Source: Stylophora pistillata
Lineage: Eukaryota
Direction: 5' to 3'
DNA length: 64,000 nucleotides
NCBI RefSeq assembly: GCF_002571385.2
Contig: NW_019218191.1
Location: 169,379 to 233,378, forward strand
Part shown: piece by piece, positions 1 through 12,100 of the stretch
Numbering within the stretch: the stretch's first letter is position 1
Layout: every line of letters starts with the position of its first letter
Program-made: the position numbers and the translations under genes
Notes under the pieces: generated by a model
Told to the model about the DNA's origin: nothing
Databases searched by the model: none
The model's input: only the letters and a program-made list of their open reading frames with translations

Positions 1-174
1 TCCTCCATTTAAGAAGATCATTCTCTGTAATGCTAAATGAACAGTAAGAGCTGCGTCGTCAACACTGCGCCCCAGTGCTCTACCGAGGACATCAAGGTCT
101 CTCTGTAAGTGCTGCCATAAGAATTGCCCCTCACACTGAGACGGGCATGGAGGTGTGATCAGCTGTGCGATTTC
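1..174 (-). CDS. RNF213: RNF213-like exon (runs off window)
   Basis: AG acceptor at 175-176; EIAQLITPP...FLWQHLQRDLDVLGRALGRSVDD. Confidence 0.85.
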
Positions 175-3100
175 CTTTGAAGAGAATTTAGAGATCTGTT
201 AATATAGTCAAGAGTGAGAGTAAAAATTTTGAAAAAGATTTTTGAGCTTTCCAAGATTACCAACATAGTATCATTGATGTCTAATCCATCAGAATCAGCG
301 ACTTAACGAGTGACACAAAGGCGGATTTTAACAGCATGAAACTTTCATAAATAAGACTGCCCATAATCGTGAAAAAAAATTCTGACAAATTTAATGATAC
401 GTGAAGCGTAGCATTCTGTCTTTTTATCTAAACACCTACAGCCTGAATAAAAATTAATTACTCTTGAAGCTTCAGTCAATGACAAAGTTCCTCTTTTGCT
501 TACTCGCTGACCGCGAGCAAATAATCACCTGGGGATATTTGGAGGCTCCCATGACCATAGCCGATTGCATTAAAGTCCTCAAGAGACTGCACACTACCGG
601 TGGCATGTCTCTCTGCGGCTCAGCGTGAGTAGGTCTAGAACCGGGTACTCCGAGGGCGTGACCAGTCTTCGTCCTGTCTTTCCTGGAAGTTCATTATTTT
701 GAGATAGATATCAGTAAAATGAGCAATGACGCTTCCTTTTTTACCTGCTGTAAACGTTTTAGGGTGATTCTGGACTCAAACTAAACCAGAATGTAGTGCA
801 GTAACATAGAGTACTTAAGGGATGACAAAGACAATATTTTCAAGTTACCTGTTAGAAACTTTAGATACTTCTGAAAACGTGAGCTGCTCCCCTCCTAAGA
901 CCCTTCCACATCCAGGACAAGTGCTCTTCTCCATTGGTTTCGAGCACTATTCCAGAACATACAAAATACACGTAAGCAAATACAGCAACAAGGGTTGACT
1001 GTGCGTTACATATATTAGAATGATTCATGACAACGACAGTAAAGAAAAATTCGATGTTTCGATAAAATCAGTTTAAAACCGTCCTAAACCAAAAGAGCTT
1101 CCCCTCTCATAAACAAACACACCCTTCCATCCCTCCTTGGTTTTTGTCGTCATGACACAGTGACTTAGTACACGGTTCATGAGCCGGCACACCGTGTAAA
1201 AACTTACCTCCCCAATAAAATACGGATGTCTGCAGTTGAGATTGCTGCACTCTGACAAGGAAAGAAAAAAATTACGTAGTGTAGGATTCATGTACGTCAG
1301 GCAACGGAATGGGAGACTTACTTGTTTTCTTCTTGCTCTATGCAGTCGTTTTTTATAATAATTGTATAGATACTTTGAAACAAAGTAACATCTTACAAAA
1401 ACATTTCAGAAAAAAAAAAACAACAACAACAACACTTACCATACCACTCTCCGACCCAACCTGTTCCCTTCATAGTTTCAGCTATGACATTAATGCACTC
1501 GAGATAGTTATCCTCAGGCATTGTTGGTAGAAACGAATTCTGTACAGAACCAATAATTATATGGGAGGTATGTTTTAATGCAGACACTCACATCAAAGTG
1601 GCTGTGAACCACTGAACTTGCAAAATAAATCATAAAGGGACGAGCAAATCGAACTTTGTATTTTAAAACCTTTTTTTAATGAAAGTTATCTTTTATCCCT
1701 GTGGTCTACTCCCAGAAAGCACGTTTCCAGTTTCACATTCTATCTGCATACTTAGCGCATTGGATTGCGCTTATCCTTTAAAAAGAACTGTCGAGGGACT
1801 GGCCTTAAGTGGCAGCATGTTTCGAGATACATTGTCTTTCTTTTTCTTTTCTAATTACTATCTTCTTCATAACATATGTTTTTCTCTTTGCGCTCCGAAC
1901 GTCACCAGTTTTTGGACAGTAATCACCATTCGAGAAACAAATTATCAAAGAGCAGCGTTTGTCTTTTCTTCACCTACTTTTGAGAACTTTCTGGGTTTTA
2001 GTCATTCTAGGGTTAAAATTTTGACCAATTTTCAGCTATCAGTTGAGCCCCACACGAGATCTTAACTCACGAAAGCCTAATACGCTAGTCGGCGGGGCCT
2101 ACCAAAAGGTTAACAGAAATGGAAGAAACGAGTGATTGAGTGATGGTTGGAAGGACGAATTTGGGCCATTACAACAACTTAACAAGTTGGAAATTCCTTT
2201 CAGCCATTCTCCGAGTTAAGAAGGAACACAACATCGAGAACACATCCTCCTTTCCAATTCTAATCTTAAATATTGAACATGGAAGCTAAAATAAGTCAAC
2301 CAGAAATTGACCAAAGGTTAGGAGGTTAAATTTTCTGGAGAACAAAAATTCTCTTTATTATCGTGTATTATGGTTATTTCGCCGTTTATGAACATGTACA
2401 TACGTTCATGGTCGATGGATCCGACATAAGGGCGAAGAGAGGTTGAGCCAAGGATCCTGAACCAACGCACTGTAAGGCTACCGCTGTGTGGATCACAATT
2501 TCAGCCAAGGTCTGCTCCTGTGGGCTTTTACCATTGTAGATTTGAAGTTCCCAGAGATGTCCTCCTTGACGGTTCGCAAGAAGTTCTTTGGCGAAAGGTT
2601 GGGCCTGCATTCGAGTCAGCGAAATTCAATTTTAAAAAATTTAATAGCCATGTTCTCACAACATACATGCATTTTTCTTTTTTTAATTTGTCTCACCGTT
2701 TCAGAAAAGTGTCCTCCATTTGTTATAAAATCATCAAGCTTTTTCCTCACCTGAAAGGTAAAAATAAACCAACAAATACTGGTCTTCTCTGAATGCAGCA
2801 CAGGGCTTGAAATTACAGCCGATTAACTAAGAATGTCCGGTCAAAATTAGGCAGCATTGAGATTGATCCTCACGTACAGGTCAAGAAATGCTTTAAAAAT
2901 CTTCTTGTTTTATATTTAAACATATTTGAACAGCGTGTCGTGGGGAGGGGGGGGGCACTATCACAGCGAAAAGACGTAATCGATGTTTGTATGGCCAAAA
3001 GTGAGTTCTGTTCGGGGAAAATTAGGTTTGACCGGACAATTTGTTATGAACTACTTAAATTAGAAGTGTTTTGGAACTGCGAAAATAAGGAATGTTCTGG

Positions 3101-6100
3101 AATTGTTTGGGCCTGTTAGATTATCTTCAAATCCTTATGCGAGTCTTGTGAGCCTTGGTTGATTATTTGCTTGCCAGAAAACACATTTATTGTTAACTTT
3201 TAAATAATATGTCCTTGACCGTTGTGAGAGAGCTTCATTCTCGTACGATAATCGTCATCGCTAATCTTGTTTAGGTGCGTCCTTGACCTGGCTTAGAAGC
3301 CCCAACGGGAGATTTTGTTTAGGTTTTTGTTCTCGGAGATTGGTTCACTTCGAATGTCTTATGAGATTGTTTTGGTTAGCATTCTAAAACTATGCTGACT
3401 GTACCAAGGTCAGCGGTCCCGTAAACCAAAACAAGATTACCGATCGGGACTATGTACTTTGAGCTGACTCAGTAGAATGGAAAGAGAGTCTCAGGGAGTA
3501 AAATAGGGTTCCTAAACAGAATCCTGGTGCCTCTCATTTGCGCGTGGTGCTCAAGTTAGTTTACCCTAACAGTCCAAACAATTAAACCGGCACCAAGTGA
3601 GACATTATTTGAAGCCCTAAAGCAAATAAAAAAGTATCGAACTAGTGCGCGTTAAAGGCGGACATGTATTCCAAGAAAAGTTACTGCAAAAAGAAGGAGG
3701 CCCACGCGTCACGTGTGCTTACCTCCTGGGACAAATTCTGTGTCTGAACTGGTGAAACATTTTCCATTGTTAGTTCACGGTACATCGCGAGGAGAAGAGG
3801 TACATTGTTGTAGACAACTTGTGATCCAGCTTCCTGCAGAAACATTGTTACACGCTGTAACTGTCTGACTAGTACCTTTTCCAACGCTTCAATTGTGAGA
3901 TGTCCGATGGTTGACGGGGCCGTCATTGATTAAAATGTATTCAAACTTCGCTAAACGAAATATCTTTAGTCTGTTAAACTACTTGTGGTTCAGTTACTGA
4001 GTCGTTGTAAAGGCAAACCAAACTAATTATCCAAGCTCAATCAAGTCGATAACATTGAGTTTCGTTTATCAGAAATCCTTCTCTGATGGAATTAATTTAA
4101 AGGGGTACTAAGGAATTATACCATATTTGTGATAATACTGAATAACGCACGCCGTAGACATTGCAGCTTAACCTATTCACTGATTAAGAAGATGAACGTG
4201 GGTGAACACGAACCGTAATGACAGAGACAATGTCTTGGATGTTCCCACTGATGACAGTTTTGGCCAATCCCTCACGGACAGCACGGTAATGGTCTCCATG
4301 AACAAGAAACCTGTCTAGGATCACATCCTCCTACAGATCGAAGATCAAAAATTATTACTAAGCAACATGTTTGATCTAAGGTCAAATGTAAAGAGTTAGC
4401 CGGCCTACACGTTAAAGAGAGACATTCTATAGTGGGTCAGACGAAAGACAGAGGAAGCGACAAATCGGAACTTTCAAAATATTTTTTTGGCTCCTTGAGA
4501 TCTCGACCTTTGCGCTTTAGAAACATTTGCGGTGATTGTTAAGTGATATTCACGAGGTTTGAGTAGGTTTTGCTCCTAAGTGAGTAAATGGAAAGTCAGT
4601 TCACTTAGTGAATGGTTTGGCTTGCGAAAAGATTGCCCGTAGCACAGTAAGTAAACCACCTGACTACCAAGTAAGATCTTGCCACGGTTTGAATTATCCT
4701 AGGATTCAGGTCTTCTTTTCCTGTCACACACTTAAGACGTATGCATAGCACTTTCTCTTAAGATTCAGTTCTCACACATTTCCTGAAATCCATTCAATAA
4801 TCATCAGTCGAGTAAAGCAATGATCCCCGCAGGTGAGCTACTAGATAAGCAATTACAGAAAAAAAGGTTGAAAAAGTGCGGCTTCGTATTAGTAAGTTGA
4901 TAGTAGCGCCCAAATGGTAGCTGTGAGACACGGGTTTGAATCCGGTCGAACCCTGAATTTTTTCAAGCTTCTTTTCTGCAATTGCTTAAATTGCAGATCA
5001 CGTGTAAGGATTGTTGCTTTACTTCAATTTCATCCGCAGGTCAAATGAAATTAATTTCATTGCAATTTTAATCATTTGTCGTCTACCTGCTGTCGAGTCT
5101 CTGAGGGTAGAATCCATTCTAGTTCCTTAAATTGACCCAAAGTCCGAACACAGTCCAAGCCATACCGCCTGACAAGCTGTTTAAGTAGGTAGAGCTGCGG
5201 TGTGGAACTCGACATTTCCAAGCAAAGCTTCCTTGCAGACACTAATAACTTTGTTACTTCTCTTTTAACTTTTTCGTCTCTGTAGCTACTGTCTCCCTCA
5301 ATAAATAACTTGTAAAGGAGCTCTACAACCAATGATAAGACGAAACGTCCCTTAGCAACTCCCTCCAGAGAACGAGCGCTCATCTCAGCAGAATCCTCGT
5401 CAATGTGCGTAAGAGCTGTGACTGTCCCTTCGCAATTCTCTGTGGCATGTTTGAGTTTTAATGTCAACCTCCTGTCTGCAAACTTGGCTTGATACTGGCT
5501 CACAAATAAGTCCTGAATAGAAAAAACCATGTAAATGTGAAGAAAACTCAGATTTTATGGCGGAATGCATTCAATATAGAGAAAAGTGACATACGTAACA
5601 TTCGCGAATGTAAGGTAAATTTGATTTCAGTTGATTTACTTTTTATCATGTTACTAACCAGCCGGGAGGTCATTATTAGGAAAAACTTTGCCCGAGGTCT
5701 TCGTCGAACATTTTTATTTGCGTAATGAAGGTGATTTACAAGGCTTCCCAGCAAACTTTGCAATTTTTTTTTATAACTACCTACCACGATCAATGAGAGA
5801 GTACGTAAGAAAAAGGAGCATGTACACATTTGAATGACCAACAGCACTGGTTTTGCGAACAAACTCGAGTTAAATGGATCACGACGATTGTTCTCTTCAA
5901 AAGCAGTCAATGATCTTGCGGAATGTTTTATTCACTTACATCCACGATTTATCTACGAAGATTTTTCTCTGTTCAGTTTTAAATGGCAAGGAAATTCACC
6001 GTAAGTATATTGAAATGTATGTTTTGAAGTTCTTTAAGTCTGTCCGTTCATTTAGTACAATGAAGTGAAAAAAATCTTCTATTTCTTCTCGCGAAAAACC

Positions 6101-9100
6101 GAAGTCAAGTGAGACCCTTTCTCTATACGGAAAGGGATTTAATCCGGCTCTTAGCAATTGATTCACTTCGGTTACTGTTGTTACACTGTGGAAGATATCA
6201 GTTCACGTACCTCCCTGCACTGAACATACAAAAGGGAGACTTCCTTGATATGCGAAGGTTCTCGTTTTAAGTTCTTAGCCCCTTTCAAGAAGTCTCCTAA
6301 ATGATTTTTCACCAGCTCTGTTCTATTTAAGAAAAAATAAGAGACAATCAAGTTTATACTTCCTCCTTTATGAAGTGATAAGAGGTATCACAAGTACAAT
6401 CAATTTGGCTTTGTAAAGAGTACAACAAAGGTCTAGGCTTTGTAAAGAGGACAACGAAGGTCTAGGTTCTGTAATCAACTGAGAAATATATTAAAAGAAG
6501 ATAGGATTTATCCCTAATGTTAGTTACCTTGAACGTAATAACAACTGGAGAAGAAATGAACACACCACAGGAGTGGGGTCAATAGCATGATCAGGGAATG
6601 GAGAGAAATCCTTTGTCTGAGATGATTGATGACCGACGACATAATGCATAAGTAGAGTGATAGCTTCCTGTTCAAGGTCCTTTGACACCGAGTCACCAAA
6701 ACAGAATATTGACACCAGCTCCATGAAAAAGGCATTACATCGGCGGCGTAACTCGGTTGCCGCCTTTTCATTGGTCCTGTAGTCACAAAGAAACCATGAA
6801 GCAATGTAAAAAAATAACAGAATTGATGTGCAGTCCTTTGGGTCCATAACGACGTATTTAAATTTTACTCTTCCTCTGAGACCGAAGAAGACTGAGATTC
6901 TATGCGATACGTACCAACTGAACCGTGTACTACAGAATAAAAAATAATGAACAATAGTTATGTCTGCCCCTCTAGGCGTATTTACGACCCTAAACCTGTC
7001 ATGGTTGCGCTATTTTACCTCTGCCTAACGTCTTCACTGTAGTTAACTAAGAATTTTTCCAAGGCCTGCAGTGATCTCAGCGAAGAAAAGTCTGTTTCAT
7101 CCCCCAAAGCCTTTAACGGAAAGAAGACATGTTGTTGAGTTTCAATTTACGACTTAGCATTTCCATTTTTTACTTTCAAATTAAGAGTAAATTCGTGCAA
7201 AAATCAAACATTGAATGGCAAAGTTAAAAAACTAAAATTCGCTGTTCTCTTGCATACAAGTAGCCTTTAGAAAGTATACAATTGCTGTGCACATTTTTTC
7301 CTTAAAAAAATTATTTGCTTCCGAAAAAACCAAAACGTTTTGTATTCAGTCCTGGGATCGATTTGGCGACACCGAACAGGATTAAAATAGGTCATGATTC
7401 ACTCGACTCGCGTATCAGAAAAACTGCGCTAGAAAAAGCTATCACAGTTCCAAGTTGTTGTACAACTTGTCATAGTCTAAACACCGTGATTTCATAAAGA
7501 TTAGATTAAATCCAGTATTCAAGAGAAGTCAAAAGTTTATGGCTCTCCCGTGTTGGGTAAAACGGTAGGCGAAAAACAACGATAATTTTTAGCATGTGCC
7601 TTTCCTCAGAATTTCGTAAGATTACGAATGATAATGCTAGAATTGATGATCTTTCAGAATACGTAAAGTTTAGTTTGGGGAAATGAATTTGGAATTTTTT
7701 ACAATTTTTGGAAAATCGTGAAGAAAGACAAAAAACTCAAGCCATTCTGATATGTACATGTGACCATCAAGATATTGATATAACAAAAATTAACACGACT
7801 CCGATGCATATAGCAAAGTAAATACAATAACCTTAACTCAAATATTATATTCTTAGCTGTTCAGATGAGTCCAGAGATTCAGTCCGTTTTGTTGTTTTCT
7901 CCATTCTGCGGTCTCCGTAAGTTTGACATCTACACCGTCGCGTTACGTCGCGGCTCATTATCTCGGGTATTGTCATTCTTAATCTTACGAAATTCTAAAC
8001 AAAGGCACAGGCTCAAAATAGTCGTTATTTTTCGTCTACCGTTTTACAGAGCACGGGGAGAGCCATAACTTCTTTGCTTCCCTTGAATACTCAGACAAAT
8101 CTAATGTTTATGAAATCATGGTGTTTAGACCATGGTAAGTTATTCAACAAATTGAAACTATGACGGCTTTTTCTAGCGAAGCAGTTTTGACAAGCGAGTC
8201 AAGAGAATCATGACTCATTTCCACCCTGTTTACTCGTGTTTGGGATCGCCAAATTGTGCTTAAGTTGAAAACGGCTTCCATCGTTTTTCTCGTGAATTAA
8301 GAGACATTTCAAGGAAAAAAACTGTATAGCATTCATCTACTTACCAAAGGCTATCTATATGCAAAAGACGAGTGAATTTGATTTTTTCAGCTTTGCCGAA
8401 GATTTGCGATTTTGTTTCATTCTTGCACGGATCTGCTCTTAAAAGAAAAACTGTTTACTGGTATAGTTACCTAACTAACTATACGCACCTTCCACAAAAT
8501 AGTTACATTCTCGGAGTTGGCTTTTTCATCTTCCTCAGCGAACAAAGTCACGTGCTCTATAAAGAGTCTGACGGCTCCGATTCGCTGCCACATGGACCTG
8601 ATCCACACGAGAACAACATGATCGCTTTTAGCATCTAGTTAATACTTTAAAAGAAAACCAATATCGGAATTTCTCTTTAACGTATGGATCCCCTTATAAC
8701 AAGGTACTAAAAATATTGTATTAATAAGATAGAGGAAAGCTTTTTTTTTTCGGGAACCAAACAAAAAATTTTCAAGGCCCTGAGAACTTATTCTCATGAG
8801 ACATCTCCCATATCTGGAATCATTTCCCGCTACATCCGCAGCCTCGGCACCAATAACGCATTCCCAAGATAATTTTAAACGATCTCAATATAAAAGAGAC
8901 CTTGAAAATCTTGAGGTCAATTATTTACGATTTAAATGACCTTTAAGGGTTGTGCATGCATTGACTGACAATACATGCACGGTTGACCGACTGACTCATT
9001 TTTCAGACAAATCCTCAGGTATAGGACACTGTGAGCGAGTGAGCGATTATACAAAACCCTATTAATGGCTTGACGGATTATCAACAGCAAACTACGTCAG

Positions 9101-12100
9101 CACCTTTAGTCGACTTCTGCTCTTGCCTCGGTCAAACCCAAGCTTTAGCGGACAAATTGGATGTTACGTTACCTGCAGCGATCAAGCAGTACTGTCGATC
9201 TCTCTCCATAGTTTGAACATTTCTCCGTGACAGGTCCGAACCTCTCTTTCCTTATCATGTCTTCCACCGCTGGTCTCATAGACAAAACTCTGTCACACCA
9301 AATTTGTCTTGTGTCCGGAAAAAGCAACATTTCTCGTGATGGCTCGATCGCTTCAAGACAAATTTGCAATGCTACCACATCCAAAAGCTGTAAAATGATA
9401 GTAGTAATAATAATAATAGCAATAATAATAATAATAATAATAATGATAATAATAATAACAATAGTAGTAACAATGATAATAATGATAATGACAACAACAA
9501 TACAGTACAGTCAATCAATCTTTAATTTACAGACGAGGCACACTAACAAGTGCAACTCAGATTAAGTTTAACTTATTATGTAGCAAAGGAAGGGACAAAA
9601 TCAGAAAGACCCAAGGTGTAGCAAGGGGCGAGAAGGGCTCGTGGTGGGCATGACATCATTGCAGCGGTAACAATCATCTGAAGTAAGAAAACAACCTAGC
9701 ATGCCAAGGACCTCTAATACACTAGTTTTCAAACCACTCCCATACCCGAAAAACCCTACCAATTACCCGATTGCTATCGTAGAAAATACTTTGACGAAAG
9801 GTATGACAAAGACTCAAAAGATATTAAGTTCACCGTTTCTCGGGCATACTTGAAATTTTCAAGGAAAAATGTTAATGGTTAAATTTTAATTATGTACTAT
9901 TATCAACCGTTTTGTTCATGCACTGAATTACAAAACTCGAGTAACTCACCACTTCTGGCTCACTTCCTTGAAGTACTTCACGTAGTCGCGGGATAAGACT
10001 TGGATTCATTTTGACAATTGTATCAAAATACTTTAAACGGTGTTGAACTCTACTGTGTGCGACATGAACGAGAGCTATGTCAATCGACTCGTTATCATCT
10101 TCATCATCCAGGATACCAAGTTCTCTCGCAGACGAAAGAATCGCTTCGTACACAAGCTGAAAAACAACATGAACAAAAAAAAGAAAATGTAGCCTTAACC
10201 GCGTTTCAGTTGCACTGAGGTAAGTCTCAGTTACCCCGGAATAAAATAACTGTTTTCTCCAACTAGTTTATCTATGGATCGATTTCCGTCTTGTATAAAA
10301 CATATTTGATATATCTGCATCTTTAATGACCACATCAAGTTTTCCAGACAACAACTTATACAGGGTATTCAACACCTTCAACCTTTTTCAGGTTGGGGTC
10401 AGAGTCCATTTAATTTAAAAAGTAAACTTTCAACGCGAAACAGTCCTTAAAATAAATCTCAAACACAAATAGATTCGTAGATTTATTCGAACTGTTTTTG
10501 TCCTAGTCGCACCCATCGCTCAAGTTAATCACGCAATATGTTTCCAGCCGGGGGAGGAGCGAGTCAAATGACTATCCTAGAGTACATTCTAAGGGGTAGT
10601 TTTAGAGTTCAATTAGTGGGAGTGTGGCTATTAATGTTATGAAAAGTATCGTGAAACCTCGTATTCATTATCGTTTGAAGGTTTGTGCACCATGTGTACG
10701 AAATCCATCAGGTATTGCGAAGCAACGGAGTCTTCATGGCGTAATTCCTTGAAGAGAAGTCCCAGTTGCGAATTGTCGATCATATCACGTAATGCGACCA
10801 ACAGGGTGGTACTAGAACCGGGTAAAGCTGAGGACAAAGCAGTAATTTAAAAAACTAATGGTTAGCCACGGAACTAGATTTCATCGCTTTAGCACTTCAG
10901 AGTTACTTCTTAGTTTTTAACACAATACTGATCTTTCTTCGTAAGCGATAGAAAACGCTAGGAAAAGGCGATTAGCCTTAAGTTAGTATTACTCTTGACA
11001 CTTTTTTATTAAGACTTAGAATGAACAAAATGTCAGAAACATAGTAGACAAGTTACAATTTTAAAAAAGGACACGCCGAGCAAATTTGAAAAAAAGCCAA
11101 GAATAGGGCAAAATGAAAGAAAATCGAAGACAAGTTCATTACCTGAGGTGCTAGATGCCTCTTTAACCATGTTCTCCACGCGTTCCTTTATAAGGAACGA
11201 AAATGGAAACCGGCTACAGAACTTGTGACCCTCAGCTCCAGAGCCAATGACTTGAACACGTTCCCGCACAGAATTAGTAGCAGGTGATATCATTTCGCTG
11301 TAACTCAGTTCTGAAAAGGTAGGGTCAGCTAAAATCTTCAACCACAGCTTTGAAACCCAACTATTGTCACTCTTTACCAAGTCCAAGTTCATGTCCCTGT
11401 CTGCAAATGCGATGATCTCAGCCAAAATGGGCACCACCACTGAATACATTCTTTGCAAAAGGGCCTTTCTAAAGGTGCCCCACTCTTGCACCCCTGTTCC
11501 AGAGAGAGCTTCTGAGTGAAGCCATATCTGTGCATCGTATGCAGTAGCCTCTTTTTCCATTAAGAGGTAGTATGTCCTTTGTACTAATACGCTTGCAAAT
11601 GACTCCTCATCTTTACGAATAAACGGCAAAGATTAAACAGAGAAAAAAGTTACCGAAAAGATTTTACTTCGAAACTACGTGATGCTCTATTCCGCATCAT
11701 CTCTTAATTTATTCTAAATGAAGCTATTATCCTTTCTCCATTACCTTGAAACATAAGTGCGGTTAAAAAAAGAAAACCGCCGAATTCATATCGCATTCGG
11801 ACAAAAAAAATTATTTGCTGCTCCTTCAAAAGAATAATGCACTTACCCAAACTCAGATAAACTCAAAGACGACAGCTCCGATTCGATATACACACATGAA
11901 TCCGAATTTGTTGGGAAACTGTATAAATATTCACATATATATCCCTCTAACAAATCTGAATAAGTAACACTTGAAAAATACGTATAGAAATTAGAGGCTC
12001 TATTAAATCTTTTGAAAAACCATACTTAATAAAGATTTCATTTTCTTGAAATGCTATCAGTATATCATTGGCAAGTTCGGTAGAAATATATTGTGCTCAC

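What the first reader, a model, noticed from the sequence alone, without database searches (positions are those of the whole stretch)
6528..7110. RING domain is cleanly absent at its expected position
Exon 7019-7110 (...LEKFLVNYSEDVRQ) joins in phase to exon 6528-6776 (RTNEKAATELRRRCNAFFMELVS). In human RNF213 the RING lies between the equivalent helices, just before FRQMCNSFFVDLVS (recalled). I found no CxxC-rich frame in the 242-bp intervening intron. The phase 2-2 junction is compatible with gain or loss of RING as a symmetric exon cassette.
Basis: partly seen in the sequence, partly recalled or inferred. Interest (0 to 1): 0.72.

Follow-up and report, generated by a model that had tools for sequence, protein, structure and literature searches.

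The report
Coral RNF213 that lost its RING
This stony coral splices a copy of the giant immune enzyme RNF213 without the RING domain it is named for, while related corals carry versions with and without it, so the RING exon was likely deleted long ago, which would give a natural test of what that domain does.

Summary
Confirmed. Exons 7019-7110 and 6528-6776 are joined across a 242-bp GT-AG intron by raw RNA reads of two runs and one RNA contig. No RING was found in the intron, the window or the 5,519-aa gene model. About 65 residues holding the human RING are missing at this point. In relatives the RING is one exon with a phase-2 acceptor in 26 of 26 intron-containing loci and a phase-2 donor in 24 of 26. 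Sponge, anemone, coral paralogues and bilaterians have it there, so this is a loss, not a gain. The gene belongs to an old RING-less coral paralogue clade; three named coral species hold both kinds. One other coral locus shows the likely route: dead donor, stop codon, exon skipped in a spliced contig. The clade also has an altered RZ zinc finger, and this copy has Leu at the catalytic His position. The RING is known to be dispensable in engineered mutants; I found no paper on natural RING-less RNF213. Enzyme activity is untested.

The parts
7019..7110 (-). Exon ending the helix before the missing RING; phase-2 donor at 7018; three codons shorter than in RING-bearing coral paralogues
6777..7018 (-). 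242-nt GT-AG intron where relatives have intron + RING exon + intron; no RING remnant at protein or DNA level
6528..6776 (-). Exon starting the post-RING helix (FFMELVS motif); phase-2 acceptor 46 nt before the FF codons, the same position as in most related loci
8489..8597 (-). Preceding E3-module exon, spliced to 7110 in RNA (5 and 6 reads, one contig)
1..60066 (-). RNF213-like gene, 61 coding exons in the window encoding residues 1562-5519 of P0212; continues beyond both ends
27461..32849 (-). Exons with the Walker A and B motifs of the two catalytic AAA units, intact
849..1539 (-). Three exons (1440-1539, 1208-1251, 849-946) encoding the RZ finger: catalytic Cys and both C-terminal zinc Cys kept, extra Cys of the RING-less clade present
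   Evidence: Pfam PF20173 on record for P0212
881..883 (-). Leu codon at the position of the RZ general-base His; an RNA contig piece over 848-948 shows no other letter
7217..8397 (.). High-copy foldback repeat in the upstream intron 7111-8488; not part of the RING site

Best explanation
This is a spliced, intact RNF213-family gene of a stony coral that lacks the RING exon, likely because an ancestral phase 2-2 RING exon was dropped after gene duplication, and its protein is predicted to be an ATP-gated ubiquitin ligase working through the RZ finger alone, likely weakened in this copy by loss of the catalytic His. Shown: the splice, the absence of a RING, the single symmetric RING exon in relatives, the RING-less clade and the kept AAA motifs and RZ catalytic Cys. 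Inferred: the order of events (duplication, skipping of the exon with frame kept, decay, deletion), the two flanking helices closing with a short turn, and the activity. The simplest reason for the loss is that the RING is not needed for RZ-based ubiquitin transfer and a RING-bearing paralogue remained in the genome.
For: Junction reads in two raw RNA runs of two studies and one RNA contig. RING exon acceptor phase 2 in 26 of 26 intron-containing RING loci, donor phase 2 in 24 of 26, next acceptor phase 2 in 26 of 26 (21 sequence clusters; 6 more RING loci are intronless); upstream donor phase 2 in the 8 loci where the script found that exon, plus L024. RING at the same place in Corticium, Nematostella, four stony-coral proteins and many bilaterians. 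Tree without RING columns: the window's clade (6 rows, Pocilloporidae, Desmophyllum, Acroporidae) 100/100, inside a cnidarian clade 100/100 with RING-bearing members and RING-bearing outgroups (14 rows in the quick tree). Stylophora pistillata, Oculina patagonica and Acropora muricata each hold both kinds. Locus L024/L025 has a RING exon with GT changed to AT and an in-frame stop, and contig L023 of the same gene splices past it. dN/dS about 0.12 over the 112 junction codons against L001 and L008. Model: helix 119-139, two-residue turn at the junction, helix 142-164, pLDDT 82-84 there; best fold matches are RNF213 (TM 0.61-0.68; Z 15.2, rmsd 4.6, 356 aligned). Mouse RNF213 with residues 3941-3999 replaced keeps auto-ubiquitination (PMC7311170, passages); RING removal leaves bacterial ubiquitylation intact (PMC11549300, passages).
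Against: No activity was measured. The general-base position is Leu here (His in 17 of 20 clade members and 86 of 115 others; Tyr in 24 others), and the mouse His-to-Ala change lowers activity (PMC12075652, passage), so this copy may be a poor ligase. The C-terminal E2-docking region lies off the contig. The number of losses in hexacorals is unresolved: two on the best tree, one not rejected (AU p 0.255). RING absence in most other corals rests on gene models, and models can skip this exon in frame (Saccoglossus P0048 has it, P0162 of the same cluster lacks it); only six RING-less loci were checked as DNA. RING inactivation did partly impair ubiquitylation of Toxoplasma vacuoles, so the domain is not inert.
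Confidence: 0.78

Rival explanations
1. The loss was selected as an escape: bacterial effectors grip RNF213 by its RING, so dropping the exon removes the handle while the RZ finger keeps working.
For: Shigella IpaH1.4 binds the RING to degrade RNF213 (PMC12440826, abstract and Discussion). RING-less forms arose more than once (coral clades, Hydra model P0163, decaying L024) and the window's clade is expanded, with several copies per genome.
Against: No RING-binding effector of a coral microbe is known to me and none was looked for; a symmetric exon is easy to lose without selection; RING-bearing paralogues persist.
Confidence: 0.2
2. This copy is no longer a working ligase but a sensor, scaffold or decoy that joins coats built by active paralogues; RING loss and the His-to-Leu change are steps in losing catalysis.
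For: Leu at the general-base position, unique among 135 RZ fingers aligned, carried by an RNA contig; RNF213 coats form cooperatively (PMC11549300, abstract).
Against: The catalytic Cys and zinc Cys are kept; the nearest paralogue P0211 and 17 of 20 clade members keep the His, so the change is recent and separate from the RING loss; 29 of 115 other RZ fingers also lack the His.
Confidence: 0.25
3. The RING-less state is ancestral and the RING was inserted as a symmetric cassette in other lineages.
For: A phase 2-2 exon could be gained as easily as lost; Hydra, an anemone (Actinostola) and most coral proteins retrieved lack it.
Against: It needs repeated insertion at one site: the sponge, Nematostella, coral clade C and bilaterians all have it between the same helices, and coral and other animal loci share exon borders, the donor lying 47-50 nt after the last Cys in 22 of 26 loci. 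No non-animal outgroup was identified, so the origin before animals is open.
Confidence: 0.04
4. Assembly or annotation artefact: a RING exon is missing from the assembly or is an alternative exon not modelled.
For: Gene models do skip this exon in other animals; the assembly has N gaps elsewhere; the read tables hide some weaker rows.
Against: No N in the intron; contig of an independent run matches 6785-7102 without gap; RNA joins the exons directly with no letters between; six related RING-less coral loci have RING-free introns of 215-3,548 nt.
Confidence: 0.02

Closest known systems
Mammalian RNF213 / mysterin (PDB 6TAX, 7OIK, 9G08, 9JW1)
   Same: Dynein-like AAA core with both Walker A/B pairs, E3 helical scaffold, RZ finger with catalytic Cys, size above 5,000 aa.
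   Different: No RING (about 65 residues fewer at that site); RZ finger with an extra Cys and Leu at the general-base position.
Engineered mouse RNF213 delta-RING (3941-3999 replaced by a five-residue linker; PMC7311170)
   Same: Same domain removed from nearly the same stretch, scaffold left intact.
   Different: Natural, old, made by exon loss and kept under purifying selection beside a RING-bearing paralogue.
RING-bearing hexacoral RNF213 (P0225, P0228, P0229, P0231; Nematostella P0233)
   Same: About 44% identical over the junction region; same flanking intron positions and phases.
   Different: Keep the RING exon and the standard Cys-His RZ start; three of the four coral ones have Tyr at the general-base position.
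ZNFX1 (the other RZ-finger E3)
   Same: RZ finger with catalytic Cys and His coupled to an NTPase (10.1101/2025.09.05.674436, passages).
   Different: SF1 helicase scaffold with a second, RING-like activity; unrelated to the AAA and E3 scaffold here.

Membership tests
RNF213 / mysterin | Dynein-like AAA core with Walker A and B motifs in two units | tested here: met
   Motifs at P0212 3340, 3402, 3700 identical in pattern to mammal P0301; fourth motif visible; Pfam AAA families on record
RNF213 / mysterin | Helical E3 scaffold homologous to solved structures | tested here: met
   Sequence E 1e-17; Foldseek top 7 all RNF213; VIA Z 15.2, rmsd 4.6, 356 aligned
RNF213 / mysterin | RZ finger with catalytic Cys | tested here: met
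   Cys kept in 20 of 20 clade members and 115 of 115 others; PF20173 on record
RNF213 / mysterin | General-base His of the RZ dyad | tested here: not met
   Leu at 881-883; position also variable elsewhere (His in 103 of 135)
RNF213 / mysterin (canonical, RING-bearing form) | C3HC4 RING between the two E3 helices | tested here: not met
   so filed as a RING-less paralogue of the family, not as canonical RNF213
RNF213 / mysterin | C-terminal E2-docking domain | not testable with these tools
   Gene runs off window base 1 and no genome is held; relatives P0199 and P0197 extend about 550 aa further
RNF213 / mysterin | ATP-stimulated ubiquitin transfer to LPS or protein | not testable with these tools
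   needs biochemistry
RING-type E3 ligases | Cross-brace RING zinc finger anywhere in the protein | tested here: not met
   Only two CxxC in 5,519 aa; RING profile negative; unseen C-terminus judged from relatives only
Symmetric (phase 2-2) exon cassette | Domain on one exon with equal phase at both ends in carriers, and one intron of that phase in non-carriers | tested here: met
   vertebrate exon borders were not tested

The most novel reading that the evidence does not exclude
Stony corals run a dedicated RZ-only RNF213 subfamily: the RING exon was shed as a cassette and the RZ finger was rewired to a four-cysteine zinc site (extra Cys in 19 of 20 members, ligand His replaced by Tyr or Phe in 10 of 20, against His in 113 of 115 others). 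The expanded RING-less copies would tag bacteria while offering no grip to RING-binding effectors, and the RING-bearing paralogue would keep the signalling role. The RING exon is then an on/off module that animals discard again and again, one case being caught half-way in L024.
Probability: 0.2. Interest if true: 0.78.

Novelty: new variant of a known kind. Interest (0 to 1): 0.52.

Why it matters
The role of the RNF213 RING is an open question: it is dispensable for LPS and self ubiquitylation, yet is hit by Moyamoya mutations and is the handle for a bacterial effector (PMC12440826, Discussion). Corals that keep RING-bearing and RING-less paralogues side by side give a natural comparison of partners, induction and activity. 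The finding also shows that proteins annotated as RNF213-like in corals often have no RING, that gene models skipping this exon mislead in other animals, and that the RZ finger has natural variants in zinc ligands and in the catalytic His worth assaying. It is a domain-loss variant of a known enzyme, already visible in public domain annotations, not a new kind of system.

Tried and rejected
Searches used the exon in the wrong frame: the empty PDB result and the 9 off-frame ORFs say nothing and were redone. Pfam on 28 single open frames gave no useful hit because RNF213 exons are short; exon 5075-5554 alone found no RNF213 chain. No whole genome is held, so paralogues of this organism could not be counted. 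A DNA profile from three coral RING exons found no remnant in the window or in the RING-less loci scanned (best E 6). The first RZ tally was one residue off and was replaced. The 56-row tree is only the quick tree, with long branches meeting for Hydra, so Hydra's loss is not placed. Of 80 loci, 4 (L052, L058, L067, L072) were dropped because the match is cut; the script picked a wrong stretch in 4 of 18 loci and found none in 6. The tally 117 with RING and 37 without includes isoforms, partial RINGs (P0070, P0150) and models that may skip the exon, so it is no measure of frequency. Two false hits (P0119, P0138) were ignored. The foldback repeat lies in the neighbouring intron and was rejected as the cause of an ancient loss. 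Look-ups of earlier scan findings returned nothing. Paper searches listed no study of natural RING-less RNF213; only listings were seen for most hits.

Full report
Observation. The finding lies in a large minus-strand gene of a coral: the stretch is held by runs of one organism and of coral metagenomes, and its nearest named proteins are from Stylophora and Pocillopora. The annotated product P0212 (5,519 aa) maps to 61 exons from 60066 to base 1 with 3,956 of 3,958 residues identical. Exon 7019-7110 and exon 6528-6776 join in one open frame across a 242-nt GT-AG intron, splitting an Arg codon after two bases. Raw RNA reads show the joint in X21 (9 reads, 8 starts) and X24 (12 reads, 10 starts), and RNA contigs show it in X10; X1 shows none and has a contig identical to 6785-7102. 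Reads were accepted from 90% likeness, so some may come from close paralogues, and weaker rows of the tables were not shown.

No RING. The intron has no CxxC in its sense frames. A RING profile from 27 homologues reaches 8.0 bits at best in the whole window, against 33-57 for RINGs outside the seed. A DNA profile of three coral RING exons finds no remnant. P0212 has CxxC only at 1939 and 5387. The downstream exon matches the helix after the RING in solved RNF213 chains, and the flanks that are 10 residues apart here are 75 apart in the human chain. From the LWKAL-like helix to the FFME motif there are 49 residues here, 46-53 in other RING-less cnidarian proteins, and 112-117 in RING-bearing ones. 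A model of the 401-residue region (mean pLDDT 83.5) ends one helix at the junction Arg and starts the next after two residues; its best fold matches are RNF213. The unseen C-terminal 550 or so residues are judged only from relatives.

The cassette. A scan of metagenome contigs gave 80 loci; 76 were analysed. In 65 of 76 the best acceptor before the anchor exon is phase 2 at 43-46 nt before the FF codons; the other 11 are one spliced contig, nine loci that appear to lack the intron and one where the scorer chose another AG. Of 32 loci with a RING, 6 are intronless there. In the other 26 (21 clusters) the RING is one exon: acceptor phase 2 in 26, donor phase 2 in 24, lengths 174-204 nt in those 24. 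Splice sites were chosen by a simple score of my own, not by reads. The upstream donor is phase 2 in the 8 loci where it was located and in L024. The two exceptions, L024 and L025, are one gene whose RING donor reads AT where L011 reads GT, and whose RING has an in-frame stop; contig L023 matches four exons of that gene at 97-100% and goes from a duplicated mini-exon straight to the anchor exon. I infer that L023 is a partly spliced RNA. This is an independent case of the likely route: donor lost, exon skipped in frame, exon decays. Six RING-less coral loci have one phase-2 intron of 215-3,548 nt at the site and no RING signal. Vertebrate exon borders were not examined.

Loss, not gain. The RING sits at this site in Corticium, Nematostella, Oculina, Stylophora, Acropora muricata, Montipora foliosa, Lingula, Mytilus, Limulus, hemichordates, amphioxus, fish and mammals. 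A tree of 20 long proteins chosen by me, RING columns removed (2,037 columns, LG+G4, one search), gives a cnidarian clade (100/100) with four unresolved branches: Nematostella with RING, coral clade C with RING, RING-less clade B (Actinostola, Oculina, Stylophora) and RING-less clade A, which holds the window. The best tree needs two losses; one shared loss is not rejected (AU p 0.255). Clade A spans Pocilloporidae, Desmophyllum and Acroporidae, so the loss predates the split of robust and complex corals (that these families lie on both sides of that split is recalled knowledge). Stylophora pistillata, Oculina patagonica and Acropora muricata each have both kinds. The two junction exons show dN/dS of 0.115 and 0.117 against L001 and L008, a long-term average. 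Caution: gene models can skip this exon; Saccoglossus P0048 and P0162 of one cluster differ exactly so, so RING-less models in amphioxus, birds and Hydra are unverified.

How it likely works. The Walker motifs are intact. The RZ catalytic Cys is kept in all 135 fingers aligned. Clade A adds a Cys in 19 of 20 and replaces the zinc-ligand His in 10 of 20, which suggests a four-Cys site (inference). The window copy alone has Leu at the general-base position, and an X10 contig piece over it has no other letter. In mouse, Cys4462 and His4483 form the catalytic pair and the His-to-Ala change lowers auto-ubiquitination (PMC12075652; passages and Discussion). Replacing mouse residues 3941-3999 leaves wild-type-like activity (PMC7311170; passages), and RING removal does not affect ubiquitylation of Salmonella or Listeria but partly impairs that of Toxoplasma vacuoles (PMC11549300; passages). 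I therefore read the protein as an ATP-gated, RZ-only ubiquitin ligase of innate defence, likely weaker than its His-bearing paralogues. An RNF213 is induced by poly(I:C) in Nematostella cells (PMC13319465; one passage), paralogue not stated in what I saw. Neutral loss after duplication is the simplest cause; escape from RING-binding effectors is possible by analogy with IpaH1.4 (PMC12440826; abstract and Discussion; PMC12662631, passages) but has no coral evidence.

Novelty. Eight paper searches listed no description of natural RING-less RNF213; 'RING-less' with RNF213 gave only the engineered mutant. Passages were also read in PMC13104285, PMC9993606, PMC10465799 and 10.1101/2025.09.05.674436; they mention coral and bivalve RNF213 abundance or expansion, not domain loss. 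The library lacks most subscription papers; Otten 2021 and Ahel 2021 were not read and are known only through citing papers; no supplement was opened, and RZ alignments in supplements may bear on the His and zinc-ligand claims. Public domain annotations already show these proteins without RING. Verdict: a real, well-supported domain-loss variant of a known enzyme, of interest because it makes the role of the RING testable; interest 0.52.

Noticed in passing
window 7217-8397: Foldback or MITE-like element with long inverted arms (76-81% complementary) and depth about 6,700-12,700 against 100-200 nearby in X1; an X1 contig joins 7182 to 8469 with 39 other letters, likely an allele or copy without it.
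   Followed up: partly
window 849-1539 and relatives: RZ finger of the RING-less clade has an extra Cys in 19 of 20 proteins and Tyr or Phe for the zinc-ligand His in 10 of 20, suggesting a four-Cys zinc site.
   Followed up: partly
L024:794-2780, L025, L023: RING-bearing-clade coral gene with a dead RING exon (GT to AT donor, in-frame stop), a 72-nt duplicated mini-exon, and a spliced contig that skips the RING; the gene may be decaying as a whole.
   Followed up: yes
L049, L059, L074-L076, L078: RNF213-like loci with a RING and no introns around it, in unnamed organisms.
   Followed up: no
L027, L039, L073: Distant loci whose frame runs from the upstream helix into the anchor without RING or intron: possibly another RING-less lineage.
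   Followed up: no
P0069 (Glandiceps), P0036 (fish): P0069 has two RING-like units in tandem before the anchor; P0036 repeats the whole E3 region. Either tandem exon duplication or model fusion.
   Followed up: no
window 61022-61447 (-), 37027-41074, 17922-18804: A 142-aa frame that looks like the end of a non-LTR retroelement protein (judged by eye), a GC-richer block of long overlapping frames inside intron 35437-42237, and a 0.9-kb minisatellite inside intron 17095-25703.
   Followed up: no
P0212 residues 1-1561 (outside the window): The N-terminal part holds two similar blocks (about 715-900 and 1110-1300) that may be duplicated carbohydrate-binding-like modules; seen by eye.
   Followed up: no
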